Shown piece after piece: positions 4,021-57,410 of a stretch of 64,000 nt of DNA; positions within the stretch are counted from its first letter, which is position 1, and each line of letters begins with the position of its first letter. This DNA comes from an uncultured bacterium (GTDB lineage: Bacteria; Patescibacteriota; JABMPQ01; CAVVCK01): assembly GCA_963746775.1 (NCBI GenBank), contig CAVVCK010000002.1, positions 431,656-495,655 on the forward strand, written 5' to 3'. The notes under the pieces were generated by a model. It was not told the origin of the DNA. It worked only from the letters and a program-made list of their open reading frames with translations, and did not search any database. The translations under genes and the position numbers were made by a program.

Positions 4021-4112
4021 AAATTCCTAATTTCTAATAAAATTTTTAATATCCAATGACAAATTATTTTTGAAATTTGACATTTGGATTTTTATTAGGA
4101 ATTAGAAATTGG
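4021..4112. repeat. Family-A word hairpin (TAGAAAT/GGAAAT words), long imperfect inverted repeat
   Basis: ATTCCTAATTTCTAATAAAA...TTTTATTAGGAATTAGAAATT outer arms and ATCCAATGACAAATT...AAATTTGACATTTGGAT inner arms fill the spacer between two GT4 genes. Confidence 0.6.
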
Positions 4113-4164
4113 TAATTGGAAATTAAAACACTGTATTACATAAAACAATATTAGTATAATCCTA

Positions 4165-5304: not shown

Positions 5305-5358
5305 TTATTTTTAGCTAATTTATCTTATTATATTAAATAAATATTTTATATTCAACAT

Positions 5359-5390
5359 AAATAGCCTAAATATGAATATTTAGGCTATTT
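5359..5390. terminator. 14-bp perfect stem-loop (AAATAGCCTAAATA tgaa TATTTAGGCTATTT)
   Basis: Read directly. It lies between the structured RNA region and the start of the GT4 gene. Its role (terminator versus spacer hairpin) is uncertain. Confidence 0.4.
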
Positions 5391-5414
5391 TAAACTATTT
5401 TTCACAAAAAAACC

Positions 5415-5443
5415 TTGACATTATTACTATTATGTGTTATCCT
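5415..5443 (+). promoter_or_regulatory. Sigma70-like promoter TTGACA-N17-TATCCT with TGn extended -10
   Basis: TTGACA at 5415-5420, TG at 5435-5436, TATCCT at 5438-5443. It points into the GC-rich structured region. Confidence 0.5.
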
Positions 5444-5449
5444 TTATTG

Positions 5450-6022
5450 TTTGTTCATTTACAAAATTTCCTTTTCTCTTTATAGCCCTAAAATTTAAGG
5501 CTTTAATGAGGAAAGGAGGTAGCATGAGTAGCTACCCGAGTGGGTTTGTCTAACAATAGGCAAAAATGCGAACCAGACCAAGATTCGACGGGGCGTCGAG
5601 GTCTGGTTGAACTTATTTTCCCCGTTAAACCTCTAACTGACAGAAGAAAGGAGGTTAACCCTGATTAAATCAGATTATGGCATGACGGCTTGCCATTTTC
5701 TGAAGAGCAAGAATAACCGTCAAACCCCCTGCATATTAAGGAGGTAAAATGCAGGTACACAAACGCTGGTTAGCAATGCTAACTAGCGCGATCTGAGAAA
5801 ACGCCACTCAGATCGTACAGAGGCGGTTCCCTGGGAGTTACCGCCGGGCGAAAAACTCCCAAACGGCCACGCTCAAGGCCACACCGAGACAGGCGATCTC
5901 GGCATTGAGCACAGGGGGCAAGCACCACATCGATCTTTTGCTTCGCCCCCACCCTTTTCAGAAAATATAATTAAATTGTATTTTGTGAAAATTAAAAAAT
6001 CACGCCTTAGGCGTGATTTTTT
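5450..6022 (+). ncRNA. Unclassified large structured RNA (about 570 nt). Strand is assigned from the promoter/terminator pair and is not certain.
   Basis: 210 of 420 nt are G+C in 5521-5940, against 18-30% in flanking lines. More than 10 directly readable helices, two pseudoknot-type pairings and three AAGGAGGU boxes. No credible ORF. See findings. Confidence 0.6.
5994..6022. terminator. Intrinsic terminator, A6-ATCACGCC-tta-GGCGTGAT-T6 (bidirectional geometry)
   Basis: GC-rich 8-bp stem flanked by an A-run and a T-run. Confidence 0.75.
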
Positions 6023-6048
6023 ATTATCTATTATTTTATTCAAAGTAC

Positions 6049-6069
6049 AGACAGGTTTCAAACCTGTCT
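6049..6069 (-). terminator. Stem-loop AGACAGG tttcaaa CCTGTCT directly after the stop of the Wzz-like gene
   Basis: Read directly. A covarying paralogue lies at 9390-9410. Confidence 0.5.
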
Positions 6070-6073
6070 TACC

Positions 6074-6688
6074 TTATTCTTCTTCCTTCAAATATTCTCT
6101 AAAAAATGCCAACCCCAAACCAATAAATATACCACCCAATAAACCAAACGCACCTACCAAATAAGGGTTATATTTTTTTAAAGTAATAATGGGTTCATCC
6201 GCTTCTACAGAAAACGAACTGTTACCTTCAGCATTTATTTCTAGAGTTTCAACTTTTTTCTTAGTCTCCTCTACTAAGGCTTTAGATAATTTACCCACCA
6301 CATCTCTATTGCTATTATTTAACCTCACGTCTATTAAATGAGAAGATAATTGCTTTGTCTTAACTTTTTTAGCTTCTTGATAAGCATCGCTCATTTTATC
6401 TTCTAAACCTGCTTCTTTGTAAACTAGGATTATAACTTCTGGAGTCTCAAGCCAACCGGTAATAGTATTGCTTAAATATTCAGCTGCCTGAATTGAATAA
6501 TAATTATCATACTGAAAATCTTCTGTTTTTTCTCTTTCAACTCTATGAATAGTCATTAAGATTGAGGCGTCAAAGCTGTCTTTTTGTAAAAACCCTAAAA
6601 TTAAAGATAAAGCTCCACATAAAACCCCTATAATTATAATAAATTTAATTTTTTCTTTTAGCACTTTAAAATAATCCTTTAAGTTCAT
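6074..6688 (-). CDS. Wzz/polysaccharide co-polymerase-like chain-length determinant (short form)
   Basis: 204 aa. N-terminal TM (FIIIIGVLCGALSLILGFL) and C-terminal TM (LVGAFGLLGGIFIGLGLAFF) flank a soluble domain, which is the PCP topology. Lies in the glycan cluster. Confidence 0.65.
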   Translation of the reverse strand: MNLKDYFKVLKEKIKFIIIIGVLCGALSLILGFLQKDSFDASILMTIHRVEREKTEDFQYDNYYSIQAAEYLSNTITGWLETPEVIILVYKEAGLEDKMSDAYQEAKKVKTKQLSSHLIDVRLNNSNRDVVGKLSKALVEETKKKVETLEINAEGNSSFSVEADEPIITLKKYNPYLVGAFGLLGGIFIGLGLAFFREYLKEEE

Positions 6689-7904: not shown

Positions 7905-7973
7905 AGGTTAGATATTAGTTAGTAGTTAGTGGTGATTAGTAGATTCTACTCATCACAAACTACTCACTACAAA

Positions 7974-9353
7974 CTAATACGCTGCCCTCCCTATTATCAC
8001 AATCACCAACGTTCTAAAAAATATTTGTAAATCTAATTTTAGTGACCAATTTTCAATATAATAAGTATCTAGTTTTACTTCATCATCAAATTCTAACTCT
8101 GCTCCTCCGCTTACTTGGGCCATACCAGTCATACCAGGTTTAATAGCTAAAACTTTCTTATGCCATTTCTGGTATTGAGCTACTTCTTCTGGCTCATGAG
8201 GACGTGGTCCAACTAAACTCATTTCATTTCTTAATACATTAAAGAATTGTGGTAATTCGTCAATACGAGTTTTTCTTAAAATTCTACCCACTTTGGTAAT
8301 TCTAGGATCATCTTTCATTTTGAATAAAGGCCCTTTACGTTCACTGTATTTTAATAATTTCTTTTTCATTTTGTGGGCATTTTCAACCATGGAACGAAAT
8401 TTATACATCTGAAATTCATTTTTATTACCTACTCTCTTTAGTTTAACAAAAACAGATCCCTTAGAACCAAGCTTGATTACGATTGCTACAATTAGGAAAA
8501 GTGGTGAAAATATTATTATTCCAATTAATGAACCAATAATGTCTAGAGATCTTTTTAAAATTCTTCCCCAACCATCCAATGGTGTTCTTTTAAGCTCGAC
8601 TAAAGGAAATCCAGCTAGAGGCCTGACATCTATATTAGTTGCCTGAGTACCAAAAAAATCAGGAACGTACTTAAAGTCAATCTTTGCCTCATCAGCAAAA
8701 TCTTTTATTTCTAAAGTTTTACTTTTGGATATTTTAGAATCTGTCTGGATAATTTCATCAATTCCTTTACTTTTGCTTATTTTCCCTAAAGAGCCCATAA
8801 CTGAATCATTATACTCTTTGATATGTGCTACAACTATATAGCCTGATAAAGGTTTTTCGAAATTGCGAATTAAGTGTTTGCTAGCTGATCCATTGCCAAT
8901 CAATACTACTCTGTAAACACCAATTCCATATTTATATAATCTTCTTTTTATAACACGAATTATAGACCGACCAAAGATAACAAATATAATTGACAGCAAC
9001 CAAGTCACAATAATTAAAAATCTAGATGAAAAAAGTTCAGCTCTTAAAAATATATAAAAAGAAAAAATAGCTACACAAACAGTAACTCCTATAAAAGCAC
9101 CGTACAAATCATCAATAAATCTCCTTTTGGATATTTTATAAAATCCTAATATAGCAAATACAAGAAGACAAAAAGGTGCAGCAACTAATATTAGCAGTAA
9201 ATATTTTGATAAAGATAAATCAAATAATATTGGTCTGACTTCTGTAAAATAATTGGTAAAACGTAAAAAATAAGAAGCAAGAGCTGCTAATAGTATCATT
9301 AAAAAATCTAACGGTAAAAGCACAACTGTAAAAAATAATTCCGATTTTTTCAT
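7974..9353 (-). CDS. Polyprenyl-phosphate sugar phosphotransferase (WbaP/EpsB-type bacterial sugar transferase)
   Basis: 459 aa with N-terminal TM helices. C-terminal domain reads KRSLDIIGSLIGIIIFSPLFL...YKFRSM...GPLFKMKDDPRITKVGRILRKTRIDELPQFFNVLRNEMSLVGPRP. Confidence 0.9.
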   Translation of the reverse strand: MKKSELFFTVVLLPLDFLMILLAALASYFLRFTNYFTEVRPILFDLSLSKYLLLILVAAPFCLLVFAILGFYKISKRRFIDDLYGAFIGVTVCVAIFSFYIFLRAELFSSRFLIIVTWLLSIIFVIFGRSIIRVIKRRLYKYGIGVYRVVLIGNGSASKHLIRNFEKPLSGYIVVAHIKEYNDSVMGSLGKISKSKGIDEIIQTDSKISKSKTLEIKDFADEAKIDFKYVPDFFGTQATNIDVRPLAGFPLVELKRTPLDGWGRILKRSLDIIGSLIGIIIFSPLFLIVAIVIKLGSKGSVFVKLKRVGNKNEFQMYKFRSMVENAHKMKKKLLKYSERKGPLFKMKDDPRITKVGRILRKTRIDELPQFFNVLRNEMSLVGPRPHEPEEVAQYQKWHKKVLAIKPGMTGMAQVSGGAELEFDDEVKLDTYYIENWSLKLDLQIFFRTLVIVIIGRAAY

Positions 9354-9410: not shown

Positions 9411-9427
9411 CTTCATTATTAACTTTA

Positions 9428-9886
9428 AATAGGCAGGCTATAAGCCGAATTCTGTCTCATCCGCCATAGATTAACAGCGAAGGCGGATTGCCTTCATTGA
9501 AAACTACGGCGAATACTATGATCATCTATCTAGCCTTACTATTACTAGCAAGGTCATGCTTTTTATAAATTACACCAGATGGGGTTTACCCTATTATAAT
9601 GTTACCATTATAACCTGTGAGCTCTTACCTCACTCTTTTCACCATTGCCTGCCATAGCCTATAAAGGCGACGGCTGGCTGTATATGTCTCTGTGGCACTT
9701 TCCCTCACCCTATCTAGAAGATAGAGTGCAATTGCCGTTAGCAATCACCTTGTTTCAAAGTCCCAAGGATTAATAGAAAATCCTATGAGGTTTTTCTACT
9801 CTCGAATCCATAAGCTCTGAGGTGTTCGGACTTTCCTCCCCTTATTATTATATAAATAATAAGAAGCGATCATAAACCTGCCTACT
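9428..9886 (-). ncRNA. rnpB: RNase P RNA, bacterial type A
   Basis: The minus strand reads ...TAGGCAGG...GGGGAGGAAAGUCCGAACACC (CR-I), GGUGAAAAGAGUGAGGUAAGAGCUCACAG (CR-II/III region) and GACAGAAUUCGGCUUAUAGCCUGCCUA (CR-V plus the P1 3' strand). Confidence 0.9.
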
Positions 9887-10010: not shown

Positions 10011-10931
10011 CTATAACGATCCTTTTTTTCTATATAAATACACAATTGTTACAATCACAGCTAATAGAACACCGAAAATTAACCAAACAATCATAGAATT
10101 ATGAGCAAAAGGAAGACCTTCAATGTTCATGCCGTAAATTCCAGATAAAAGAGTTAGGGGTAGCAAAGATACAGAAATAATTGTTAATAATTTCATTATT
10201 TCGTTAGTCTTCAAGGAAACAATACTTTCATTAGTTTCAAATAAGCCATCTGAAATATTTTTATAATCATCCAAAATAGTCCAAACCTTCTCTAAATAGT
10301 CCCTAATATCATCAAAATATACTATATATTCTCTTCTTAAAATAAAATCTTTCTTAGAATGAGATAAACTATCAATTATAAATTTTTCCATACTCACGGT
10401 TCTCCTTATATCAAGAATTATTCTCCTAGCAAAAGCCAGCTCCTCAATAGTTTCTTTGTCTGCTTTTCTATCATAAATTTCTTCTTCTACGTTTGATACA
10501 AATTTACTTAATGATTTTAAACTTTCTGAATAATATGTTTTAAAAAGTGGGTCTAAAATTTTATAAAGTAAATAGCCTGATCCTCGGTTAGATAATTTCT
10601 TTTTATAATTATCACTTTTAGCAACTTTCAAAAATAAATTTTGGACAATATCAATTTTATTTTTTTGAATAGTTATTAAATAATTCTGTCCTACAAAAAT
10701 ATTTAATTCTAAATTTTTAAGCTTATTTTTTATAATTTGCGGAAAGTTTAAGATTGAAAAAATATAATGCTTATAAACATCAACTTTAGGAGGTTGCTTT
10801 TCTCCTAAAACATCCTGAATATCTAATTGATGAAATTGAAAATTTTCTTCTAGATAGTTAATGTCTTCATCTTGAGGATCAATAATATTTACCCAGTTAA
10901 TATTTCCAATTTTTGTAGATTTTAGAGCCAT
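10011..10931 (-). CDS. corA: CorA-family Mg2+/Co2+ transporter
   Basis: 306 aa. YGMNIEGLP (GMN motif) followed by a terminal TM helix. Confidence 0.85.
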   Translation of the reverse strand: MALKSTKIGNINWVNIIDPQDEDINYLEENFQFHQLDIQDVLGEKQPPKVDVYKHYIFSILNFPQIIKNKLKNLELNIFVGQNYLITIQKNKIDIVQNLFLKVAKSDNYKKKLSNRGSGYLLYKILDPLFKTYYSESLKSLSKFVSNVEEEIYDRKADKETIEELAFARRIILDIRRTVSMEKFIIDSLSHSKKDFILRREYIVYFDDIRDYLEKVWTILDDYKNISDGLFETNESIVSLKTNEIMKLLTIISVSLLPLTLLSGIYGMNIEGLPFAHNSMIVWLIFGVLLAVIVTIVYLYRKKGSL

Positions 10932-13067: not shown

Positions 13068-13084
13068 ATAAAATTAATTATCAT

Positions 13085-13115
13085 AAAAGCCCAGCATTTT
13101 GTAGCTGGGCTTTTT
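13085..13115. terminator. Bidirectional intrinsic terminator AAAAGCCCAGC-loop-GCTGGGCTTTTT between convergent genes
   Basis: Read directly. Confidence 0.8.
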
Positions 13116-13137
13116 AAATTATTTTATTATCATTATT

Positions 13138-13860: not shown

Positions 13861-13940
13861 CATCCGCTTTATCCGCCAAATCCGCTAATCCGTAAACAAT
13901 AGATAACGGATTAGGCGGATTATTGCGGATAAGCGGAAAA
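13861..13940. repeat. Family-B word hairpin (ATCCGC/GCGGAT words), copy B1
   Basis: CATCCGCTTTATCCGCCAAATCCGCTAATCCGT...ACGGATTAGGCGGATTATTGCGGATAAGCGGAAAA. The left arm is nearly identical to copy B2. Confidence 0.75.
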
Positions 13941-15109: not shown

Positions 15110-16846
15110 TTACTTAGCCTTCCTAAAATCAACTACCCTAATTTGCAAATTTTTCTTCCCATTCCATTCATTACAATCAATTTCAAAAATAATATCTATT
15201 TCATTGCCAAGCTCTTTTAATTTACCATTTTTAATATTAAAATATACACCTTCAATTTGCCCTTTATTATTTTGATCATTTAAAATTAATTTTAAATGAT
15301 CCCGCCTTTTACCAATTCTATCAAAACTCATTACCAATACTTTATGAGATATAAATAAAGGTTTTTCATTATTAGCACCATATGGCTTTAATTTTTCTAG
15401 CTCATTATAAAAATCCCAATTGATATTTTTTAAATCAATCTCTGCTTCTATATTTATTTTAGGTATTAAATCTTCTTCGCTTAGTTTTTCTTCAGCAATT
15501 TTATTAATTTTTTCAGAAAATTTATCTAAATTTTCATTTTCTAAAGTACAACCAGCCGCTCCTTTATGCCCACCAAACTCTAATAATAAATCCGAGCAAT
15601 CATTTATAGCCTCAATAATATTAAAGCTTGGAATACTACGAGCAGAGCCAGCACTCTCCTTCTCTCCTCGCGTTAAGACAAAACTTGGCCTAAAATATTC
15701 CTCGCAAATCTTAGAAGCTACTATACCCATCACTCCTAATGGCCAACCTTCTTTATTAGCTATTAAAACTTTCTTTGATAAATCTAATTCTTTCTTAATT
15801 TCCCTAAAAATTTGGTCCGTTATTCGCTGTCTTTTCCTATTAGATAATTCTAGTTGATAAGATAGAAGCTTCGCAATGCCATAAGATTCTGTGGCTAATA
15901 ATTTATAGGCAGCATTAGCATGATCTAGACGTCCTGCCGAATTAATACGTGGAGCTAAATAGAAACCTACTCCAAAACTATCAACCTTGAGTAAATCTAC
16001 TTGAGCAGACTTAGCTAGAGCTTGAAATCCCTGCCTTTTGGACTTAGATAATACTTTTAATCCTTCTTGCACTAAAATTCTATTTTCACCTGTCAGAGGC
16101 GAGCAATCAGCTATTGTCCCTACCGCTACTAAATCTAATAAACTTTTTTCAAATTCTTCTTGTAGTTCCTTATTTTCCTTAAATTCTGTATTAGTTTTTT
16201 TAATTATTTCAGACCTAAAAATTGCTTGAGCTAATTTAAAAACAATTCCTACTCCAGATAGTTCTTTATAGGGATATTCATCCTTTCCTTGTTTAGCATT
16301 AACAATTATATAATCATCAGAAAATTCTTCCGACAAATGATGATGATCAAAAACAATTACATCTACTCCCTTTTCTTTAGCATAATCAATTTCGAGCTTA
16401 TTCGCTACCCCACAATCACAAGTAACAATCAATTTTATATCTTTTTTAATTAACCAATCTATCGCTTTTTTATTTAACCCATATCCCTCACGCGCCCTAT
16501 CTGGAATATACAATTGCCCGGATAAACCCAAAACTTTCTTAAATATTTCTGTTAAAACGAGAGAAGAAGTTACTCCATCAGCGTCATAATCGCCATATAT
16601 CCCTACTCTCTCTTTATTATCCATAGCTTTTCCAATTCGCTCCAGGGCCCTATCCATATCTTTAAATAAAAATGGATCATATAAATCAGAATATTTTAAA
16701 TTATAAAACTTATCGATTTTATCTTTTGTATCAATTTTTCTATTAAATAGTAATTGTAAAATAGTAGAATTATATTGAGAAAAGTGAGAAATAAATTCCT
16801 GAGGTGCTTTTTCTAATATATTCCATTTTTTTGAAATTTCAGACAT
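15110..16846 (-). CDS. recJ: Single-stranded-DNA-specific exonuclease RecJ
   Basis: 578 aa. DHH family motifs GDYDADGVTS, DCG, FDHHH. Confidence 0.9.
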   Translation of the reverse strand: MSEISKKWNILEKAPQEFISHFSQYNSTILQLLFNRKIDTKDKIDKFYNLKYSDLYDPFLFKDMDRALERIGKAMDNKERVGIYGDYDADGVTSSLVLTEIFKKVLGLSGQLYIPDRAREGYGLNKKAIDWLIKKDIKLIVTCDCGVANKLEIDYAKEKGVDVIVFDHHHLSEEFSDDYIIVNAKQGKDEYPYKELSGVGIVFKLAQAIFRSEIIKKTNTEFKENKELQEEFEKSLLDLVAVGTIADCSPLTGENRILVQEGLKVLSKSKRQGFQALAKSAQVDLLKVDSFGVGFYLAPRINSAGRLDHANAAYKLLATESYGIAKLLSYQLELSNRKRQRITDQIFREIKKELDLSKKVLIANKEGWPLGVMGIVASKICEEYFRPSFVLTRGEKESAGSARSIPSFNIIEAINDCSDLLLEFGGHKGAAGCTLENENLDKFSEKINKIAEEKLSEEDLIPKINIEAEIDLKNINWDFYNELEKLKPYGANNEKPLFISHKVLVMSFDRIGKRRDHLKLILNDQNNKGQIEGVYFNIKNGKLKELGNEIDIIFEIDCNEWNGKKNLQIRVVDFRKAK

Positions 16847-16896
16847 TCAATATAATTAATAACATGACTCATACTATCATAAATTTCCATATATGC

Positions 16897-16922
16897 AAAA
16901 AAGAGCATCCTGCTCTTTTTTT
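16897..16922. terminator. Intrinsic terminator AAAAAAGAGCA tcc TGCTCTTTTTTT
   Basis: Read directly. Follows the ROK kinase stop. Confidence 0.75.
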
Positions 16923-16932
16923 AAATTTATAC

Positions 16933-17847: not shown

Positions 17848-18246
17848 TTATATATTGTTTATCGTTTTTTTTAATTCTACTAAAACCTCATCAACTACTT
17901 TTTCTACCTTATTTATATCTTCTCTAGTAGTTTTTGCTTTAAGCCCAAAATCTTTACTTTGAAACTCCTTAGCACATGCCTCAATGTCTGCTTGAATTTC
18001 TTCTGAAATATCTAATTCCCCCCTTTTGGCATAATCTAATATTACAGCCAAACCACCCGTTACAGCAGTAAACCATCCTTTTTGTAATTTGTATCTTGTT
18101 TGAGAAGTATCAGAATGAACAATTTTTCCCGGATCTTCATCGCTCCACATTTTCAACCTTTCTAACATTGGTATAATCTTAGTTCTTATAGCCTCTGGAA
18201 TCTTATTTGATAAATCAGGATTTTCTTCAAATCTTCTCTCGGTCAT
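17848..18246 (-). CDS. Hypothetical protein (132 aa), translationally coupled between ackA and the glucokinase
   Basis: ATGA overlap with the ackA stop, and it abuts the glucokinase start. No family recognised. Confidence 0.6.
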   Translation of the reverse strand: MTERRFEENPDLSNKIPEAIRTKIIPMLERLKMWSDEDPGKIVHSDTSQTRYKLQKGWFTAVTGGLAVILDYAKRGELDISEEIQADIEACAKEFQSKDFGLKAKTTREDINKVEKVVDEVLVELKKTINNI

Positions 18247-25060: not shown

Positions 25061-25429
25061 TTATTTTTTATTATCTATACTTTTTCCTAAAGTTTTCAGT
25101 TCTGTCCAAAGCATAACACCTATTTCATCGGCTAATTTTAAAGCAATAATGTAATCTTCTTTTTTTATATAATTCTCATTTAAAGAGAAATAGAGAAGGT
25201 ACTTAGACTCTTTTAATGATCCATAAGATATTTCAAGAAAATTCAACTGGACAGCTCTTTTCCTTCTAGCAAAACCTTCAATATAATTAAGTATCACCGA
25301 GAGTAATGATCTTCTTATCTATGAAACAACTCCATATAATTCTGCCTTTGGATATCCCCTGGTTAATTTATACATTGAATGAACATATTCATCCATTTTT
25401 AATTTTAACTCATCTTGAAACTTAGGCAT
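25061..25429 (-). pseudogene. Four-helix-bundle protein gene (23S rRNA IVS / Avd-like family) interrupted by one in-frame TAG at 25319..25321
   Basis: Own translation: MPKFQDELKLKMDEYVHSMYKLTRGYPKAELYGVVS*IRRSLLSVILNYIEGFARRKRAVQLNFLEISYGSLKESKYLL... The track shows only the 78-aa distal part (GTG start). Confidence 0.75.
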
Positions 25430-27510: not shown

Positions 27511-27870
27511 TTATTTTGAATCTTTGATATTTTTTATTTCAGTCCAAAGCAGAGCACCTATTTCATCTGCTAATTCCATTCCCTTTTTATATTGATTTTC
27601 GTTAATAAATCCTTCCATTAAAGAAAAATGTAAAAGATATTTAGTTTCTTTCAATAATCCATACGACATCATTGAAAAATTTCTCTGATTACCCTTATTA
27701 AATCTTGCAAAACCTTCTATATAATTAAGTATTACTGACAATGAAACTCGTTTAAGTTAAGAAACTATACCGAATAATTCTTCTTTTGGAAAATTGTATG
27801 ATATCTTATAGCAATAATGAGCATATTGATCCATTTTCTTTTTCAATATTTCTCTATAATTCTCTTTCAT
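27511..27870 (-). pseudogene. Second four-helix-bundle protein gene interrupted by one in-frame TAA at 27757..27759
   Basis: Own translation: MKENYREILKKKMDQYAHYCYKISYNFPKEELFGIVS*LKRVSLSVILNYIEGFARFNKGNQRNF... The track shows only the 76-aa distal part (TTG start). Confidence 0.75.
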
Positions 27871-29599: not shown

Positions 29600-29670
29600 C
29601 TGTTTTTGACCTGCTTATCTGTAATATTTAAAAAGCGGACTTAGCGGATTTTAGCAGATACGCGGAAAAA
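29600..29670. repeat. Family-B word hairpin, decayed copy B4
   Basis: The right arm AAGCGGACTTAGCGGATTTTAGCAGATACGCGGAAAAA is intact. The left arm is degenerate (CTGCTTATCTG in place of CCGCTTATCCG). Confidence 0.55.
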
Positions 29671-45153: not shown

Positions 45154-45172
45154 AAATCATTAACTATGTAAT

Positions 45173-45250
45173 TATCCGCTTTATCCGCCAAATCCGCTAT
45201 ATCCGTAAACTACAAATAGCGGATAAAGCGGATTCTGCGGATAGACGGAA
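45173..45250. repeat. Family-B word hairpin, copy B2, between rplN and rplX
   Basis: ATCCGCTTTATCCGCCAAATCCGCTATATCCGTAAAC...AGCGGATAAAGCGGATTCTGCGGATAGACGGAAAA. Confidence 0.75.
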
Positions 45251-45280
45251 AAAACATACTGATAAATTTTATAATCTACT

Positions 45281-48153: not shown

Positions 48154-48996
48154 TTATTTTCTTCTTTTAATAATCAATTTACTTGATCTCTTTTTCTTAT
48201 TTCTTGTCTTAACACCGATGGCTGGCTTACCCCAAGGTGTTTTAGGATGTTTCATACCTATCGGAGTTGATCCTTCACCACCACCATGCGGATGATCAAC
48301 TGGATTCATTGCTTTACCTCTGACGTGCGGTCTAATACCTTTCCATCTTTTTCTACCTGCTTTACCTATCTCTATATTAATATGTTCTACATTACTTACT
48401 TGGCCAACAGTTGCCATACAACTAGATAATATATTTCTTACCTCACCCGAAGAAAGTTTTACCTGGGCATATTTATTCTCTATAGACATTAACTGAACTT
48501 GTGAACCAGCACTTTTGGCTAACTGTGAACCTCTACCAGGGTAAAGTTCTATTTCAGAAATAAATGTACCTGTTGGAATATATTTCATAGGCATTCTATT
48601 ACCTATATTTGCATCTATTTTCTTTTTAGATGATAAAATTTTGTCTCCTACTTTAATTAATTCAGGAGCAACTATATAACTTTTTTTACCATCTTCATAT
48701 TTAATTAAAGCAATAAAAGCGGTCCTATTTGGATCATACTCTAGGGCAATTACTTCTGTAATCTCATCATATCTACTTCTTTTGAAATCAACTATTCTAT
48801 ATCTTCTACTATTACCACCACCTCTGTGTCTCGAAGTAACTCTACCAGTACTTTTACTTCTGCCAGTTTTTTTTCTGGATTTCAATAATAAAGATTTCTC
48901 CGGTTTTTTCTTTGTTAGAACACTATAATCAACCGTTTTCATATAACGTCTCGATGGGGTTGTTGGTTTGTAAGTTTTTACTGACATATCTAACAA
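48154..48996 (-). CDS. rplB: 50S ribosomal protein L2
   Basis: [22 protein letters not shown]. Confidence 0.95.
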
Positions 48997-49037
48997 TTAA
49001 TAATTGATAATAAATAATGAAAATGAAATTAGTTATT

Positions 49038-49096
49038 TAGAAAATAGAAATTTGTAATAGATATTAGAAACTAGAATTACAAATTTCTATTTTCTA
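49038..49096. repeat. Family-A hairpin A4: perfect 21-bp stem TAGAAAATAGAAATTTGTAAT / ATTACAAATTTCTATTTTCTA with a 17-nt loop, between rplW and rplB
   Basis: Arms at 49038-49058 and 49076-49096 verified base by base. Confidence 0.85.
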
Positions 49097-49181
49097 CTTT
49101 CAATTACCCTTTTCTAGTTTCTGTACATCCAGTTTCATGTAAAATATTTTAAATGTGATCACTTTCAATAACAAATATAAT

Positions 49182-49574
49182 TTATACACCATCATATATC
49201 TGAATCGTCTGTCCTTTAGGTAAAGCTACTATAGCTTTTTTGTAAGTAGATGTCCTGCCTTGTACTTTGCCATATCTTCGCTCTTTTCCACCAACCTTTA
49301 TAGTATTAATACTTATTGGTTTTATTCCATAAACATCTTTAATTGCCTGACTTATTTCTTTTTTATTAGCTTTATTTGATACTATAAAAATATATTTATT
49401 CTCTTCACTTAAATAAGTTGCTTTCTCAGAAATTTGGGGATAAAGTAAAATTTTGTGAGCATTGCTTTCAATTTTAGCTTTCGATTTTTCAACCTTTTTA
49501 GGAGTTTTCTTTTTGCTATCTTTCTTTTTACTATCAACTTTTTCTTCTTTTTTAAATTTATCTAAAATACTCAT
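49182..49574 (-). CDS. rplW: 50S ribosomal protein L23 with a Lys-rich N-terminal extension
   Basis: ILLYPQISEKATYL...IFIVSNKANKKEI. Confidence 0.92.
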   Translation of the reverse strand: MSILDKFKKEEKVDSKKKDSKKKTPKKVEKSKAKIESNAHKILLYPQISEKATYLSEENKYIFIVSNKANKKEISQAIKDVYGIKPISINTIKVGGKERRYGKVQGRTSTYKKAIVALPKGQTIQIYDGV

Positions 49575-49583
49575 TTTATAAAT

Positions 49584-50216
49584 TTATTGTTTATAATTAT
49601 TTTGCAAATTTTCTACAGCCTGAACAGTCATTAAAAGTGAATCATATTTTAAAATATCATATAAATTTAGACTTTCGGTAGTAGTTAATTTCATCTTAGG
49701 AGCATTCTTAATAGACTTTAATATTGTTTTATCTTGTATTCCTAAAACTACTAAAGCATTTTCATTTTTAACTGGTAATTTATTAATACTTTTTACAAAT
49801 TCCTTAGTGCTAATTTTCTTCATTTTTAATTCATCAACTAAAATCAATTTTTTATCATTTACTTTAGAACTCAGAGTCATGAATAAAGCTTTTTTTCTTT
49901 CTTTCTTGTTAATTTTTTTCTTGAAATTAATATTAGAACTTGGTCCAAAAGTAACACCACCACCAACCCAGATAGGAGATCTATTTGATCCATGACGTGC
50001 TCTGCCTGTACCTTTTTGTTTCCATGGTTTTCTACCACCACCTCTTACTTCACTTCTATCTTTTACGTGTGCTACTACGTTTCTTTTATTGGAAAGATGA
50101 GCAACTACAACCTTATGAATAACTTCTTTTTTTACTTCAATATCAAAAATATCCTTATCTAAATCTAGATCTTTTACTTTCTTACCTTCCATATTGTAAA
50201 CTGTAACTTTCGCCAT
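49584..50216 (-). CDS. rplD: 50S ribosomal protein L4
   Basis: RGGGRKPWKQKGTGRARHGS. Confidence 0.95.
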   Translation of the reverse strand: MAKVTVYNMEGKKVKDLDLDKDIFDIEVKKEVIHKVVVAHLSNKRNVVAHVKDRSEVRGGGRKPWKQKGTGRARHGSNRSPIWVGGGVTFGPSSNINFKKKINKKERKKALFMTLSSKVNDKKLILVDELKMKKISTKEFVKSINKLPVKNENALVVLGIQDKTILKSIKNAPKMKLTTTESLNLYDILKYDSLLMTVQAVENLQNNYKQ

Positions 50217-50217
50217 T

Positions 50218-50832
50218 TTATGATTTTATAAAAACTAAACTTTCTCTAGCACCAGGAATACCACCTTTTAAAATAATTAAATTTTTATCAACATCTAAAT
50301 CTATAACTTCAGAATTTAAGGTTACTTTATCTCCGCCCATTCTACCAGCCATCCTTAAACCTTTTATAACATGTTCAGGATAACCAGCACCGATTGAACC
50401 AGGTTTTCTTAAATCATGTTTGTGACCATGTGTTTTTGGAGATCCATGAAATTTATGTCTCTTAACAACTCCAGCGAATCCCATACCTTTTGATTTAGCA
50501 ATAATTTTCACTTTATCCCCTTTTTCGAAAACATCAACTTTTATTTCTTGTCCTTCTTTAACATCATTCAATTCATCTACTCTTAATTCTCTTAGATATC
50601 TTAATTTGTCTTTTCCTTTTAATGCTTTATTCAAATGTCCTGTTCTTGGTTTATTATTTTTTGCAGTTTCGGAAAAACCAATTTGTAAACTATTATATCC
50701 TTCTTTTTCAACTTTTTTTATTTGGGTAACATAACAAGGTCCAGCAGTAACTAAAGTAACAGGAATAGCTTTCCCTTTTTCGTTATAAATTCTGCTCATT
50801 CCAATTTTTTTTCCTATAATTACTTTATACAT
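50218..50832 (-). CDS. rplC: 50S ribosomal protein L3
   Basis: GKKIGMSRIY...FAGVVKRHKFHG. Confidence 0.95.
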   Translation of the reverse strand: MYKVIIGKKIGMSRIYNEKGKAIPVTLVTAGPCYVTQIKKVEKEGYNSLQIGFSETAKNNKPRTGHLNKALKGKDKLRYLRELRVDELNDVKEGQEIKVDVFEKGDKVKIIAKSKGMGFAGVVKRHKFHGSPKTHGHKHDLRKPGSIGAGYPEHVIKGLRMAGRMGGDKVTLNSEVIDLDVDKNLIILKGGIPGARESLVFIKS

Positions 50833-50853
50833 AATAAAATAATATTAAATTAA

Positions 50854-50914
50854 TTCCGCGCTATCCGCAAACTAAGTTATTGCGGATGATACGGATAAAG
50901 CGGATTACGCGGAT
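50854..50914. repeat. Family-B word hairpin, copy B3 (short left arm), in the rpsJ-rplC spacer
   Basis: TTCCGCGCTATCCGCAA...TTGCGGATGATACGGATAAAGCGGATTACGCGGATC. Confidence 0.65.
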
Positions 50915-50951
50915 CAATAAATTACGTAAATTAATATTTACCTATCAAAAA

Positions 50952-51001
50952 CCGGAAATTTAAGAAGCCAGAAAACATACGCCGGCTTCTAAAATTTCCG
51001 G
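50952..51001. repeat. 18-bp stem-loop CCGGAAATTTAAGAAGCC / GGCTTCTAAAATTTCCGG (one mismatch)
   Basis: Read directly. In the rpsJ-rplC spacer. Confidence 0.7.
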
Positions 51002-51072
51002 ACCTTGCTTACTTTAAATTTACTAAATAACAATAAAATAATTATTTAGTAAATTCTTTAGCTTATACTTTT

Positions 51073-51096
51073 AAGTCCCGATTTTAATCGGAACTT
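51073..51096. terminator. Small stem-loop AAGTCCCGAT ttta ATCGGAACTT just after the rpsJ stop
   Basis: Read directly. One C/A mismatch. Confidence 0.4.
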
Positions 51097-51111
51097 TAAT
51101 TATAAACTATC

Positions 51112-51441
51112 CTACATTTTAATCTCAATATCAACTCCAGCTGGTAAATTCAGATTAGTTAATGCTTCAATAGTATCTGGCTTCGGTTTTAAAATATCAA
51201 TCAATCTTTTATGAATTCTCATTTCAAATTGCTCTCTGGCATCTTTATGAACAAAGGTAGATTTATTAACTGTCTCTACTCTTTTCTCTGTAGGCAGAGG
51301 GACTGGCCCGCAAATCTCCGCCCCAGTTCTCTTGGCTGTTTCTACAATTTGAATAACTGCTTGATCAATTATCTTATGATCAAATGCTTTAATTTTTATT
51401 CTTATTCTTTGGGTTATCTCTTCTTCTTGGTTTTTAGACAT
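51112..51441 (-). CDS. rpsJ: 30S ribosomal protein S10
   Basis: [18 protein letters not shown]. Confidence 0.95.
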
Positions 51442-52747: not shown

Positions 52748-52856
52748 CACAGTATTAATATACCAATTTATGCGAATTATACGAATAAATACTTGATTAG
52801 TATTATTAATATCAATTAGTATGCTTATCTCGAGTATTTTCGAGAGATTAGCATCG
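52748..52856. repeat. Family-C word element, copy C3
   Basis: AGTATTAATATACCAATTTATGCGAATTATACGAAT...GATTAGTATTATTAAT...GATTAGCATCG. Shares its ends and words with C1 and C2. Confidence 0.55.
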
Positions 52857-52861
52857 AAATA

Positions 52862-53191
52862 TTAGAAATCATCATCTAGATCTTCATATAGATATTGGGT
52901 TTCATTTTTTAAATCTTCATCAGTAGAATCGCCTGTTAAAAAATGATCATCTAGATTTTTTTCCTCTTCATTTTGACTAGCGTGCCAAATAGCTATATCT
53001 TTATTGATTTTCTCTACTAATTCTTCTTTAGACATTTCTCCTATAAAAACATTTTCTGAATTAGAGACTATTTTCTTATATTCCTTAATATCCATTAATA
53101 CATATGAGGGTTTACCTTCTTCTACAATAATATACTTACCACTAGAATTTTTTAATAGATCAATAATTTCGGAAAAATCTTTTGAATTCAT
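52862..53191 (-). CDS. Hypothetical acidic 109-aa protein between fusA and tuf. The N-terminal third resembles Phd/YefM-type antitoxin folds.
   Basis: SGKYIIVEEGKPSYVLMDIKEYKKI, then an acidic tail ending YEDLDDDF. Confidence 0.55.
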   Translation of the reverse strand: MNSKDFSEIIDLLKNSSGKYIIVEEGKPSYVLMDIKEYKKIVSNSENVFIGEMSKEELVEKINKDIAIWHASQNEEEKNLDDHFLTGDSTDEDLKNETQYLYEDLDDDF

Positions 53192-55503: not shown

Positions 55504-55585
55504 CGATACTAATATACTAATTTATACGAATTATACTAATACAAAATTATTCGTATTATTAGTATTCATTCGTATATTGGCATCG
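55504..55585. repeat. Family-C word hairpin, copy C2, between rpsG and fusA
   Basis: CGATACTAATATACTAAT...TTAGTATTCATTCGTATATTGGCATCG. Both ends are nearly identical to C1. Confidence 0.7.
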
Positions 55586-56139: not shown

Positions 56140-56610
56140 TTATTTACTTTCTTCTTTAGGAACTTCGGCAGGCGCTGCCTTCTTCTTGGCTCCCTTACTG
56201 CTTTTATCTAATTTAGCACCATATAGACTTCTTCCCTGTTTTCTGCCATCTACACCGCCTGTATCAAGCGGTCCACGAACAATATGATATTTAACACCGG
56301 GCAAATCTTTTACTCTACCACCACGGACAAGTACTACAGAGTGTTCTTGTAAATTATGACCTTCTCCTGGAATATAGGCAGTAACTTCCGTACCATTAGT
56401 AAGTCTGACACGAGCAATCTTTCTTAGAGCAGAGTTTGGCTTCTTAGGAGTCATAGTGGTTACTTTCATACAAACTCCTCTTTTGAAAGGATTGCCAGTT
56501 TTTACAAATTTCTTTTTAATTTTATTAAAATCACGCTGCAGTGCAGGTGACTTGGGTTTTCTCTTAACAGTTTTTCTTCTTCTCTTTACTAATTGATTAA
56601 TAGTTGGCAT
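56140..56610 (-). CDS. rpsL: 30S ribosomal protein S12 with a roughly 30-aa C-terminal extension
   Basis: [10 protein letters not shown]...[10 protein letters not shown]...GVKYHIVRG. Confidence 0.95.
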
Positions 56611-56784: not shown

Positions 56785-56948
56785 AAAAAATAGAAACTGG
56801 CTATATAGAAAATAGAAATTGGTAATAGAAATTAGAAAAATTGAAAATAGTTATGATATAATTCAAATGAAACAAAAGCTATTTTCTAATTTCCAATTAC
56901 TATTACTATCTTCCAATTTCTAAATAGCTAATTTCAATTTCATTTTTT
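56785..56948. repeat. Family-A word hairpin, copy A5 (about 65-nt arms)
   Basis: AAAAAATAGAAACTGGCTATATAGAAAATAGAAATTGGTAATAGAAATTAGAAAAATTGAAAATAG...CTATTTTCTAATTTCCAATTACTATTACTATCTTCCAATTTCTAAATAGCTAATTTCAATTTCATTTTTT. Confidence 0.65.
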
Positions 56949-56999: not shown

Positions 57000-57029
57000 T
57001 TGCATTTATTCTTTATTTCGTATTATAAT
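57000..57029 (+). promoter_or_regulatory. Promoter-like TTGCAT-N18-TATAAT placed 6 nt before an ATG (possible leaderless mRNA)
   Basis: TTGCAT at 57000-57005, TATAAT at 57024-57029, ATG at 57036. Confidence 0.4.
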
Positions 57030-57035
57030 TACTCT

Positions 57036-57410
57036 ATGCAAATAAACATCCTAAAAAGCAAAAATCTCCAGCAATCCACATCTGAAATTACTAGAGACAT
57101 TTTTGAAGTATTTTCTATTTTTTATTTAATTTTATTATTAGTAAATCAAATAAAAATAGGCTTTGTGAGTGATTTCTTAAATTTAAATCATATCTTAATA
57201 ATTGTTGTAGTCTCAGGACTTTTATCTCTCTGGAAAGAAAAATTAGAAGTGGGCAATAGAGATTATGTTTTTATTGTAATTTTGGCTCTGCTTGGAGCTA
57301 TGGCTATATTCTATAAAACTTCTATCTTCGGAAATTTTAAAGCTTCTATTTTCGCTTTCTTGAGTTTTGTTTTTATTATTTTAGTTTTATTTTTTTTATT
57401 AAAGAAGTAA
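57036..57410 (+). CDS. Hypothetical 124-aa membrane protein (the track ORF starts earlier at TTG 57000)
   Basis: Four hydrophobic segments. Followed by a terminator. Confidence 0.55.
   Translation: MQINILKSKNLQQSTSEITRDIFEVFSIFYLILLLVNQIKIGFVSDFLNLNHILIIVVVSGLLSLWKEKLEVGNRDYVFIVILALLGAMAIFYKTSIFGNFKASIFAFLSFVFIILVLFFLLKK

What the first reader, a model, noticed from the sequence alone, without database searches (positions are those of the whole stretch)
49038..49096. Perfect 21-bp hairpin (family A) splitting rplW and rplB in the S10 operon
TAGAAAATAGAAATTTGTAAT (49038-49058) and ATTACAAATTTCTATTTTCTA (49076-49096) are exact reverse complements with a 17-nt loop. They lie inside a 185-bp L23-L2 spacer whose outer parts extend the inverted repeat imperfectly (ATGAAAATGAAATT...CAGTTTCATGT).

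The stem is made of the same 7-nt (T)AGAAAT words seen in the other family-A elements.
Basis: seen in the sequence. Interest (0 to 1): 0.5.

Follow-up and report, generated by a model that had tools for sequence, protein, structure and literature searches.

The report
Repeat-element hairpin inserted between rplW and rplB
The perfect hairpin between the ribosomal-protein genes L23 and L2 is real, but it is one copy of a ~120-bp palindromic repeat that is scattered through this small bacterial genome, is missing from the same spot in its closest relatives, and shows no sign so far of being a purpose-built regulatory signal.

Summary
TAGAAAATAGAAATTTGTAAT (49038-49058) and its exact reverse complement (49076-49096) form a 21-bp stem with a 17-nt loop, far beyond chance.

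The hairpin is the core of a ~120-bp imperfect palindrome (about 49017-49140). The palindrome lies in the rplW-rplB spacer of a Patescibacteria (CPR) genome; the genes are on the minus strand.

It belongs to a multi-copy family whose arms are tandem heptamers T[AG]G[AT]AAT:
- The window holds six copies.
- More than 120 metagenome contigs carry the same 21-mer.
- Homologous ~135-nt units sit in unrelated flanks.
- Some copies lie inside 23S rRNA genes; one was placed at the classical helix-25 intervening-sequence site.

In the six closest lineages (L2 72-85% identical) the rplW-rplB spacer is 14-82 bp and carries no such element.

Nothing supports a promoter, a terminator or an Rfam family. 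There is no strand-specific RNA selection, and this gene junction is not favoured over others.

Best reading: a MITE/REPIN/Correia-like palindromic repeat, co-transcribed with the operon. It probably forms a double-stranded RNA that RNase III could cut, with an effect on L2 expression that is mild or neutral. The way it moves and any RNA processing are untested.

The parts
49182..49574 (-). rplW (ribosomal protein L23), the upstream gene in the direction of transcription
   Evidence: ORF. Pfam Ribosomal_L23 on the identical product in L001.
48988..49181 (-). The rplW-rplB intercistronic spacer, 194 nt, about 19% G+C
   Evidence: The L2 start at ATG 48987 follows from homologues.
49017..49140 (.). 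Full copy of the family-A 'A-rich-arm-first' palindromic repeat element, about 124 bp. It runs from ATGAAAATGAAATTAG... to ...CAGTTTCATGT.
   Evidence: It aligns colinearly with the window copies at 56790-56941 and 63026-63160 and with seven copies from other metagenome contigs. Conservation stops at these borders. The whole-element RNA fold has z = -3.9.
49038..49058 (.). Left arm of the perfect 21-bp stem, TAGAAAATAGAAATTTGTAAT (three heptamer words)
   Evidence: (I2).
49059..49075 (.). The 17-nt loop, AGATATTAGAAACTAGA. It is itself made of the same words.
49076..49096 (.). Right arm of the perfect stem, ATTACAAATTTCTATTTTCTA
   Evidence: (I2).
49066..49122 (.). Second, competing perfect 11-bp inverted repeat: AGAAACTAGAA (49066-49076) with TTCTAGTTTCT (49112-49122). 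It reflects register ambiguity among the repeated words.
   Evidence: I5. The alternative register-shifted MFE fold (-28.5 kcal/mol) is nearly as stable as the perfect hairpin (-27.2).
48154..48987 (-). rplB (ribosomal protein L2), the downstream gene. Its ATG lies 50 nt beyond the 3' end of the perfect stem in the transcript and is not preceded by a Shine-Dalgarno-like motif.
   Evidence: (P0001, 100% identical, 277 aa).
56790..56941 (.). Family-A copy (A-rich arm first), upstream of the 156-aa ORF at 56140-56610 (S12 by synteny with L082)
   Evidence: (I4).
63026..63160 (.). Family-A copy (A-rich arm first), in the spacer after the S-adenosylmethionine synthetase gene (63164-63970)
   Evidence: (I1).
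35591..35682 (.). Family-A-like copy in the spacer next to the triosephosphate isomerase gene (34765-35550)
4022..4124 (.). Family-A copy of the 'T-rich-arm-first' form (AATTCCTAATTTCTAAT ... GGTAATTGGAAATT), between two glycosyltransferase genes
   Evidence: (I19). It matches the termini of the metagenomic T-first copies.
39150..39263 (.). Family-A copy of the T-rich-arm-first form, in the secY-adk spacer. That spacer is 216 bp here and 32 bp in sister L082.

Best explanation
The hairpin is the core of one copy of a non-coding, multi-copy palindromic repeat. The closest analogies are MITE, REPIN and Correia elements. Its arms are tandem heptamer words T[AG]G[AT]AAT.

**Shown**
- The copy entered the normally tiny rplW-rplB spacer in this lineage only.
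- It is a discrete unit of about 120 bp, with homologues in unrelated flanks here and in many other CPR genomes.
- It is absent from the orthologous site in the closest relatives.

**Inferred**
- It spread as DNA by an unknown transposition- or recombination-like route, into spacers where it is tolerated.
- The exceptionally perfect 21-bp inner stem of this copy arose secondarily. The likely routes are a register-shifted deletion or a foldback (template-switch) repair between repeated words. Typical family members pair only GAAA/TTTC tetrads, with mismatched word edges.
- Because it lies inside the operon it is co-transcribed. It then folds into an A-U-rich double-stranded RNA (21 perfect bp, or a ~45-bp imperfect stem).
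- That RNA is a plausible substrate for RNase III or a barrier to exonucleases. It also breaks the tight L23-L2 translational coupling seen in relatives.
- The net effect is probably neutral to mildly modulatory, not a selected regulatory device.
For: **Multi-copy family**
- The 21-mer occurs 5 times in the window with up to 3 mismatches, against 0.07 expected. With up to 2 mismatches to the family consensus, six arm matches lie in 64 kb.
- The window copies at 49k, 56k and 63k align colinearly over about 130 nt.

**Discrete unit in unrelated flanks**
- Ten A-first copies from the window and six other metagenome contigs align over about 125-150 nt. Conservation stops at both ends.
- T-first copies have sharp termini, AATTTCTAAT...ATTAGAAATT.

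**Lineage-specific insertion**
- The six closest lineages (L2 72-85% identical) have rplW-rplB spacers of 14, 31, 14, 14, 82 and 34 bp, none with the element.
- The median among 81 relatives and sister lineages is 14 bp.
- The family-B and family-C hairpins in the L14-L24 and L6-L18 spacers are likewise absent in sister L082.

**Patchy distribution typical of repeat bursts**
- Motif matches: 6 in the window, 0 in 47 kb of sister DNA, and 2 of 80 GTDB relatives.

**Behaviour of a DNA palindrome, not a strand-specific RNA**
- About 96% of copies are intergenic, and they occur in both orientations relative to genes.
- The sense strand has no folding advantage: it is more stable in 16 cases and less stable in 18.
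- This junction is not favoured: 11 of 81 spacers are 60 bp or longer, similar to other junctions.

**Preserved arm complementarity**
- One compensatory change keeps the arms complementary: GGTTAT/ATAACT becomes GGCTAT/ATAGCT.

**A dsRNA-processing consequence is plausible**
- The same module forms a long hairpin insertion inside four 23S rRNA gene contigs. In L119 it was placed by model alignment in the loop of the hairpin at Rfam LSU positions 574-600, taken here to be helix 25, a classical site of RNase III-excised intervening sequences (background in PMC11270868).
Against: - No target-site duplication could be recognised.
- No transposase, RAYT or other autonomous partner was found in the window or between paired copies. 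The mechanism of spread is therefore unproven.
- About half of the motif occurrences are single arrays with no partner arm within 170 nt, and one locus (L178) carries a long heptamer satellite. Slippage or recombination could create some copies without transposition.
- Copies inside the window are no more alike (67-74%) than they are to copies from other metagenomes (68-77%). The 29-mer TAGAAATTAGAAATTGGTAATTAGAAATT is nearly invariant across many contigs. This hints at sequence-specific constraint that a purely selfish, neutrally decaying element would not show.
- Eight or more such elements sit inside the highly expressed ribosomal-protein gene cluster. That is compatible with a use in operon processing.
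Confidence: 0.65

Rival explanations
1. It is a selected cis-acting RNA structure of the operon. The hairpin would be an RNase III (or other dsRNA endonuclease) processing site, or a 3'-exonuclease barrier. It would split the long ribosomal-protein transcript and set the L23:L2 expression ratio. In this view the repeat family is a reusable 'processing cassette'.
For: - A perfect 21-bp stem is long enough for RNase III (established knowledge).
- The same module is inserted in four 23S rRNA gene contigs; in L119 it sits at the helix-25 intervening-sequence site, where removal or tolerance is obligatory (PMC11270868).
- The window has eight or more word-hairpins between ribosomal-protein cluster genes.
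- The arm sequence is strongly conserved across contigs.
- Copies lie flush against start or stop codons.
Against: - It is absent at this site in all six closest lineages and in most of the 81 relatives and sister lineages.
- The junction is not favoured.
- There is no sense-strand folding advantage, and copies occur in either polarity relative to genes.
- Almost no covariation was seen: 1 of 36 pairs.
- No RNase III gene is visible in the window, which is not informative for the whole genome.
Confidence: 0.17
2. It acts as DNA. The heptamer arrays would be binding sites for a sequence-specific DNA-binding protein (nucleoid-associated, partition-like, regulator or uptake-signal-like). The hairpin would then be only a by-product of two arrays lying in inverted orientation.
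For: - Half of the occurrences are single arrays without a partner arm.
- The 29-mer is nearly invariant across many contigs.
- There is no strand preference for folding.
Against: - The 7-bp period does not match the DNA helical repeat (inference from the sequence).
- At least four different word families (A-D) share the same architecture within 64 kb. Each would need its own binding protein.
- The element is absent from close relatives that share the same gene set in this region.
- Copies occur inside rRNA genes, where a DNA-binding role is hard to picture.
Confidence: 0.08
3. It was generated locally, not inserted. Replication slippage would have expanded heptamer words in an A+T-rich spacer, and a template switch would have created the palindrome. 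Similarity to other copies would be convergence on a slippage-prone word.
For: - L178 carries a long heptamer satellite made of the same words.
- Register ambiguity and competing pairings exist within this copy.
- The perfect inner stem looks like a recent foldback event (compared with the family consensus).
Against: - Colinear homology extends over about 125 nt and includes non-word segments (GGYTRTWTAG ... ATARCYA). It links this copy to copies in other loci and other genomes with unrelated flanks.
- The element borders are sharp.
Confidence: 0.07
4. It is an intrinsic transcription terminator or attenuator, or an internal promoter, that separates an rplW-proximal unit from an rplB-distal unit.
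For: The hairpin lies between genes. The 3' arm and downstream sequence are U-rich.
Against: - The consensus scan found no terminator-like site. Promoter-like sites numbered 6, against 3.7 +/- 1.5 in shuffles.
- The genome's evident terminators have G+C-rich stems followed by T-runs, for example 5989-6027, 13080-13119, 16894-16924 and 38399-38434. This stem has only 3 G-C pairs in 21.
- Orientation relative to genes is not fixed.
Confidence: 0.03

Closest known systems
Correia elements (NEMIS/CREE) of Neisseria
   Same: - Non-coding palindromic repeats of about 100-160 bp with long terminal inverted repeats.
- Many copies, inserted in intergenic spacers including within operons.
- Co-transcribed. 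Their hairpin RNA is known, from the established literature, to be cut by RNase III and to change mRNA stability.
   Different: - There is no sequence similarity.
- Correia elements have a TA target duplication and an IHF site. No target duplication was seen here.
- The arms here are tandem heptamer words.
- The family spans many CPR genomes, not one genus.
- RNase III cleavage is untested.
REP / BIME / REPIN elements with RAYT transposases (Proteobacteria)
   Same: - Several families of short extragenic palindromes coexist in one genome.
- Inverted pairs form long hairpins.
- They are located between co-transcribed genes.
- They are known to protect upstream mRNA from 3' exonucleases.
   Different: - REP units are G+C-rich palindromes of 20-40 nt. 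Here the arms are A+T-rich direct heptamer arrays that are not themselves palindromic.
- No RAYT (IS200-like Y1 transposase) was seen in the window.
- The lineage is different.
23S rRNA intervening sequences (IVS) excised by RNase III (Salmonella, Leptospira, Campylobacter, Coxiella; short ORF-less insertions in CPR rRNA, PMC11270868)
   Same: Homologous family-A hairpins occur inside four CPR 23S rRNA gene contigs. In L119 the insertion extends the loop of the helix-25 hairpin, with an added G+C clamp. This links the element to a known class of RNase III substrates.
   Different: The copy under study lies in an mRNA spacer, not in rRNA. The cited survey of CPR rRNA insertions does not mention repeats (the word 'repeat' does not occur in its main text).
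ERIC/IRU, RUP/BOX/SPRITE and Rickettsia palindromic elements
   Same: They are small, non-autonomous, imperfect palindromes scattered in intergenic DNA of compact genomes. They are often transcribed, and their function is debated.
   Different: They are unrelated in sequence and host range. None is built from tandem heptamer words, and none is reported in both mRNA spacers and rRNA helices.
TIGR arrays of TIGR-Tas systems (PMC12045711), which are frequent in parasitic bacteria
   Same: They are short repeated words in non-coding DNA of CPR-type organisms. Some variants have palindromic segments.
   Different: TIGR arrays have a 36-nt unit of alternating edge and loop repeats with 9-nt spacers, and they adjoin a Nop-domain Tas gene. 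Here the period is 7 nt, the two halves are inverted repeats, and none of the flanking ORFs scanned with Pfam is a Tas gene.

Membership tests
MITE (miniature inverted-repeat transposable element) | Short (under about 600 bp) and non-coding | tested here: met
   About 124 bp, no ORF.
MITE | Terminal inverted repeats | tested here: met
   The arms pair over about 45-55 nt. There are 36 consensus pairs across 10 copies.
MITE | Many copies with unrelated flanking sequence | tested here: met
   Six copies in the window. At least 120 metagenome contigs carry the 21-mer. Conservation ends at the element borders.
MITE | Target-site duplication flanking each copy | tested here: inconclusive
   No consistent direct repeat was seen next to 25 T-first and 10 A-first copies. 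A+T-rich flanks and fuzzy ends limit the test.
MITE | A related autonomous element (transposase gene) with the same termini | tested here: inconclusive
   None of the ten window ORFs scanned, including those next to copies, is a transposase. The genes between the paired copies in L116 look like membrane proteins from their translations. The whole genome could not be searched.
MITE | Presence/absence difference at orthologous sites | tested here: met
   The element is absent from the rplW-rplB spacer in six sister lineages.
REP/REPIN | Association with a RAYT (IS200-like tyrosine transposase) gene flanked by the repeats | tested here: inconclusive
   The only candidate near a copy (136-aa ORF, 57000-57410) has no Pfam match. 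The rest of the genome was not available.
REP/REPIN | The unit is itself a short imperfect palindrome, and pairs of units lie in inverted orientation | tested here: not met
   Each arm is a direct array of heptamer words, not a palindrome.
23S rRNA intervening sequence | Inserted in a 23S rRNA helix (helix 9, 25 or 45) as a helix extension | tested here: not met
   The window copy lies between protein genes. Homologous copies in L095, L101, L106 and L119 are inside 23S genes, and L119 has the insertion in the loop at Rfam LSU model positions 574-600.
23S rRNA intervening sequence | Excised by RNase III | not testable with these tools
   This needs RNA end-mapping or an enzyme assay.
Intrinsic (Rho-independent) terminator | A short G+C-rich stem followed directly by a U-tract on the transcribed strand | tested here: not met
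   No terminator-like site in 48800-49400 on either strand. The stem has 3 G-C pairs in 21.
TIGR array (TIGR-Tas) | A 36-nt unit of alternating edge and loop repeats with about 9-nt spacers, next to a Nop-domain Tas gene | tested here: not met
   The period is 7 nt, the architecture is an inverted repeat, and the flanking genes are rplW and rplB.
Any Rfam family (ribosomal-protein leaders and others) | Reaches the family's gathering score | tested here: not met
   The only gathering-level match in the window is RNase P RNA. In 48900-51200 the only match with E up to 1 is a microRNA-precursor model at 29 bits, against a threshold of 70. That is a hairpin-shape artefact.

The most novel reading that the evidence does not exclude
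The heptamer-word hairpins would be a previously undescribed, CPR-wide class of modular element. The same sequence module (…TAGAAATTAGAAATTGGTAATTAGAAATT and its complement) would serve both as intervening sequences inside 23S rRNA helices and as intercistronic hairpins in mRNAs. It would be kept close to a consensus by a sequence-specific factor: a dsRNA-processing enzyme, or a protein that binds heptad repeats. These promoter-poor, streamlined genomes would use it to cut long operon transcripts into separately tuned pieces. On that reading the rplW-rplB copy is a recently recruited processing site, not junk.
Probability: 0.15. Interest if true: 0.75.

Novelty: new variant of a known kind. 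Interest (0 to 1): 0.42.

Why it matters
For this locus the practical message is caution. A striking perfect hairpin in the middle of the most conserved operon in bacteria turns out to be a lineage-specific copy of a repeat, not a conserved regulatory signal.

The wider interest lies in the family:
- CPR/Patescibacteria genomes are tiny and densely packed, yet this one tolerates roughly 15-20 word-built hairpins in 64 kb. Eight or more of them sit inside the ribosomal-protein gene cluster.
- The same module turns up in more than a hundred metagenome contigs and inside 23S rRNA genes.
- If these elements are cut as RNA, they would link rRNA fragmentation and operon mRNA processing in an uncultured radiation where almost nothing is known about gene expression.
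- If they are mobile, their mechanism is unknown: no transposase and no target duplication were seen.
- They also matter technically, as a source of assembly breaks and of false 'regulatory hairpin' calls in CPR genomes.

Tried and rejected
1. **Known RNA families.** Rfam at gathering level over the whole window found only RNase P RNA. A permissive scan of 48900-51200 gave only a sub-threshold microRNA-precursor artefact.
2. **Promoter or terminator.** Nothing exceeded chance.
3. **TIGR-Tas array.** This was suggested by a literature hit for Patescibacteria plus palindromic repeats. It was rejected on period, architecture and neighbouring genes.
4. **RAYT or transposase next to copies.** The 136-aa ORF at 57000-57410 has no Pfam hit, and the other neighbours scanned are housekeeping genes. 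The genes between the two L116 copies look like membrane proteins from their translations.
5. **Strand-specific RNA selection (G-U versus A-C asymmetry).** The sense strand folded better in 16 of 34 co-directional cases, so there is no signal.
6. **Fixed polarity or distance to start codons (promoter or leader idea).** The array abuts starts and stops alike, in both orientations.
7. **Insertion hotspot at the L23-L2 junction.** The junction behaves like the others.
8. **Phage vector.** Only one of 2.9 million viral contigs carries the motif.
9. **RNase III gene in the window.** This says nothing about the rest of the genome.
10. **Exact look-up of the L2 protein.** It failed for both start choices. 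L23 worked and gave only the same organism.
11. **Literature.** Searches for CPR promoters or inverted repeats and for MITEs in Patescibacteria found nothing relevant.
12. **Target-site duplications.** None was recognisable.

Full report
**1. The observation**

The sequence at 49038-49096 reads TAGAAAATAGAAATTTGTAAT, then 17 nt, then ATTACAAATTTCTATTTTCTA. The repeat finder reports the two arms as 21 nt, 100% complementary, 17 nt apart (I2).

This is far beyond chance:
- The longest perfect inverted repeat in 100 dinucleotide-preserving shuffles of the window was 17 bp. In 2000 shuffles of the spacer it was 13 bp.
- The hairpin as DNA has z = -7.5.
- The whole element as minus-strand RNA has z = -3.9, with 0 of 200 shuffles as stable.

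An independent Logan assembly (L001) is identical through the whole spacer.

All genes here are on the minus strand: tuf, rpsJ, rplC, rplD, rplW (49182-49574), the spacer, rplB, rpsS, rplV, rpsC, rplP and so on. Homologues place the L2 start at ATG 48987, so the spacer is 194 nt rather than 185.

**2. The organism and its closest relatives**

L2 searches place the window in the Patescibacteria (CPR). GTDB species representatives reach only about 60% L2 identity. The protein database holds closer lineages at 72-85%.

Across 81 relatives and sister lineages the rplW-rplB spacer has a median of 14 bp.

The six closest lineages have these spacers:

| Locus | Spacer (bp) |
|---|---|
| L082 | 14 |
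| L083 | 31 |
| L088 | 14 |
| L210 / L211 | 14 |
| L212 | 82 (an unrelated small G+C hairpin) |
| L214 | 34 |

None carries the element. It is therefore a derived insertion of roughly 120-170 bp in this lineage.

**3. It is one copy of a repeat family**

The 21-mer, with up to 3 mismatches, occurs five times in the window against 0.07 expected. Reading the intergenic regions shows family-A elements at these positions:

| Coordinates | Form |
|---|---|
| 4022-4124 | T-rich arm first |
| 35591-35682 | family-A-like |
| 39150-39263 | T-rich arm first |
| 49017-49140 | A-rich arm first (this finding) |
| 56790-56941 | A-rich arm first |
| 63026-63160 | A-rich arm first |

The arms are tandem heptamers T[AG]G[AT]AAT.

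There are two forms: A-rich arm first (as here) and T-rich arm first.

Ten A-first copies were aligned: three from the window and seven from six other metagenome contigs. They align colinearly over about 125-150 nt. The alignment includes non-word segments (GGYTRTWTAG ... ATARCYA), and similarity stops at both borders.

The consensus fold is a ladder of GAAA/UUUC tetrads separated by small mismatches at the word edges. It has 36 pairs, nearly all invariant, with one compensatory change (GGTTAT/ATAACT to GGCTAT/ATAGCT).

This copy differs from the family:
- It lacks the usual central segment.
- Its left arm pairs perfectly with the inner part of its right arm.
- A register-shifted whole-element fold (-28.5 kcal/mol) competes with the perfect hairpin (-27.2).
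- A second perfect 11-bp pairing exists, 49066-49076 with 49112-49122 (I5).

I read the perfect stem as a secondary event peculiar to this copy, either a deletion or a foldback repair between repeated words. That is inference.

**4. Distribution outside the window**

- The dominant form is TAGAAATTAGAAATTGGTAATTAGAAATT, which is four heptamers.
- Of 100 usable occurrences, 27 have the partner arm upstream, 15 have it downstream, 5 are ambiguous and 53 have no partner within 170 nt.
- About 96% are intergenic. The array ends within about 6-28 nt of either a start or a stop codon, and it occurs in both orientations relative to genes.
- T-first copies have sharp ends (AATTTCTAAT...ATTAGAAATT; about 93-125 bp in most). 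No target-site duplication is recognisable.
- The distribution is patchy: 6 matches in the window, 0 in 47 kb of sister DNA, 2 of 80 GTDB relatives, and 1 viral contig.
- Copies within the window are 67-74% identical to each other and 68-77% identical to copies from other contigs.

**5. Copies inside rRNA genes**

Four of the contigs are 23S rRNA genes. In each, a T-first family-A hairpin with an added G+C clamp (CCGAUGCUUCGCAUCGG...CCGACGCGGAGCGUCGG) folds into one stem of about 85 bp.

In L119 the model alignment puts the ~140-nt insertion in the loop of the hairpin at Rfam LSU positions 574-600. That hairpin is helix 25, going by my recollection of the E. coli 23S numbering. By comparison with the E. 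coli 23S sequence as I recall it, L095 looks as if it shares this site, while L101 and L106 appear to carry the module elsewhere in the gene; only L119 was placed by model alignment.

Helix 25 is a classical site of intervening sequences removed by RNase III. A survey of CPR rRNA insertions noted many short, ORF-less insertions at such sites. It did not relate them to intergenic repeats (PMC11270868). This is the best indirect argument that the module is handled as double-stranded RNA. It remains an inference for the mRNA copy.

**6. Tests of a dedicated function at this locus**

- No Rfam family matches.
- There is no terminator-like site, and promoter-like sites do not exceed chance. The genome's evident terminators are G+C-rich stems followed by T-runs.
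- Among 34 family members lying between co-directional genes, the sense strand folds better in 16 and worse in 18. There is no sign of selection for G-U pairs.
- The L23-L2 junction is expanded to 60 bp or more in 11 of 81 relatives and sisters, much like other junctions at roughly 10-15%. In many of those cases the extra DNA is again a word-built hairpin, but with different words: L056, L065, L027, L050, L037 and L024. Spacers in CPR ribosomal-protein operons are thus repeatedly and independently colonised.
- No transposase or RAYT was found near copies.
- The TIGR-Tas reading was rejected on period and architecture.

**7. Conclusion**

The evidence favours a lineage-specific insertion of a MITE/REPIN/Correia-like palindromic repeat (confidence about 0.65). 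The likely consequence is a dsRNA hairpin in the operon transcript that RNase III could cut, and a loss of the tight L23-L2 coupling seen in relatives.

A selected processing role is possible but unsupported (about 0.17). Other rivals are DNA-binding arrays (0.08), local slippage (0.07), and a terminator or promoter (0.03).

The family itself is the more interesting result: heptamer-word arms, several word families in one genome, spread across many CPR metagenome contigs, and presence in both mRNA spacers and 23S helices. No paper in the searchable library describes it. Hence 'new variant of a known kind' and moderate interest.

Noticed in passing
window 13862-13940, 29635-29670, 45172-45253, 50854-50915: 'Family B' hairpins have the same architecture but different words: ATCCGC arrays facing GCGGAT arrays. 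The G+C cores pair and the linkers mismatch. Two copies lie in ribosomal-protein spacers (L14-L24 and S10-L3) that are short or lack the element in sister L082. No family-B array was seen in any of the about 200 other loci fetched.
   Followed up: partly
window 42981-43055, 52770-52824, 55520-55560; locus L065 8531-8689: 'Family C' hairpins are built from TACGAAT, TAGTAT and TACTAAT words. The copy in the L6-L18 spacer closely resembles the hairpin that fills the L23-L2 spacer of a distant relative (L065, L2 about 55% identical). The two share ...ATTCGAATGAATTAGTATA...GTATCGC.
   Followed up: partly
window 37501-37595; also 7913-7979: Further word-built hairpins are present: CAAAC/GTTTG words in the spacer between the 248-aa ORF (37645-38391) and ruvX, and TTAGTAG words at 7913-7979. 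Sister L082 has its own types: TTAGTAA words at 16759-16877, and CTAACAT repeated four times at 17899-17950.
   Followed up: no
window 50946-51007 and 51074-51096 (minus strand); L082 8169-8347; L083 1255-1615; L088 727-1020; L212 3630-3822; L214 1357-1576: The rpsJ-rplC spacer is long (median 253 bp; 60 bp or more in 66 of 71 relatives and sisters). In the sister lineages it holds two conserved structures. One is an AGUUCCGAU..AUCGGAACUU hairpin just after rpsJ. The other is a ~20-bp stem, CCGGAAAYUUUAGAAGCC...GGCUUCUAAARUUUCCGG, followed by UUUUUGAUA about 25 nt before the rplC start, with compensatory changes between lineages. It looks like a terminator or attenuator-type leader for the L3 operon. 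No Rfam family matches it.
   Followed up: partly
loci L095, L101, L106, L119: Family-A T-first hairpins with an extra G+C clamp are inserted in four 23S rRNA gene contigs. In L119 the insertion sits in the loop at Rfam LSU model positions 574-600 (helix 25). L119 also has a second insertion of 273 nt near model position 685.
   Followed up: partly
window 5305-6073: A 769-bp ORF-free stretch is clearly richer in G+C (39%) than its surroundings. It contains strong helices and the string GATTCGACGGGG, which resembles the 5' part of tmRNA. It is followed by two terminator-like hairpins (5989-6027 and 6043-6075). ARAGORN and Rfam (gathering level, and E up to 0.1) give no credible match. It is probably an unrecognised structured RNA.
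   Followed up: partly
window 25061-25297 and 27511-27741 (minus strand): Two paralogous short ORFs match only the C-terminal 60% of Pfam 23S_rRNA_IVP (PF05635; E = 6e-12 and 1e-9). They lie in 430-450-bp 'gaps', and the N-terminal part is not in frame, so the genes are truncated or frameshifted. Each is preceded by a short TTGTT/GTTTT word tract.
   Followed up: partly
locus L178, around 10260-10560 on the minus strand: A long tandem array (over 200 nt) of the same heptamer words (TAGAAAT, TAGATAA, TGGTAAT, TAGTAAT, TGGATGA). This is a satellite-like expansion, not a hairpin.
   Followed up: no
window 9425-9885 (minus strand): Bacterial class-A RNase P RNA: 166 bits, against a gathering score of 100.
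   Followed up: no
window 52862-53191 (minus strand); L082 6185-6508: A 107-109-aa ORF with a weak, below-cutoff Phd/YefM antitoxin match (E = 1.8e-5) sits between fusA and tuf in the window and in sister L082. This is an unusual conserved insertion in the str operon.
   Followed up: no
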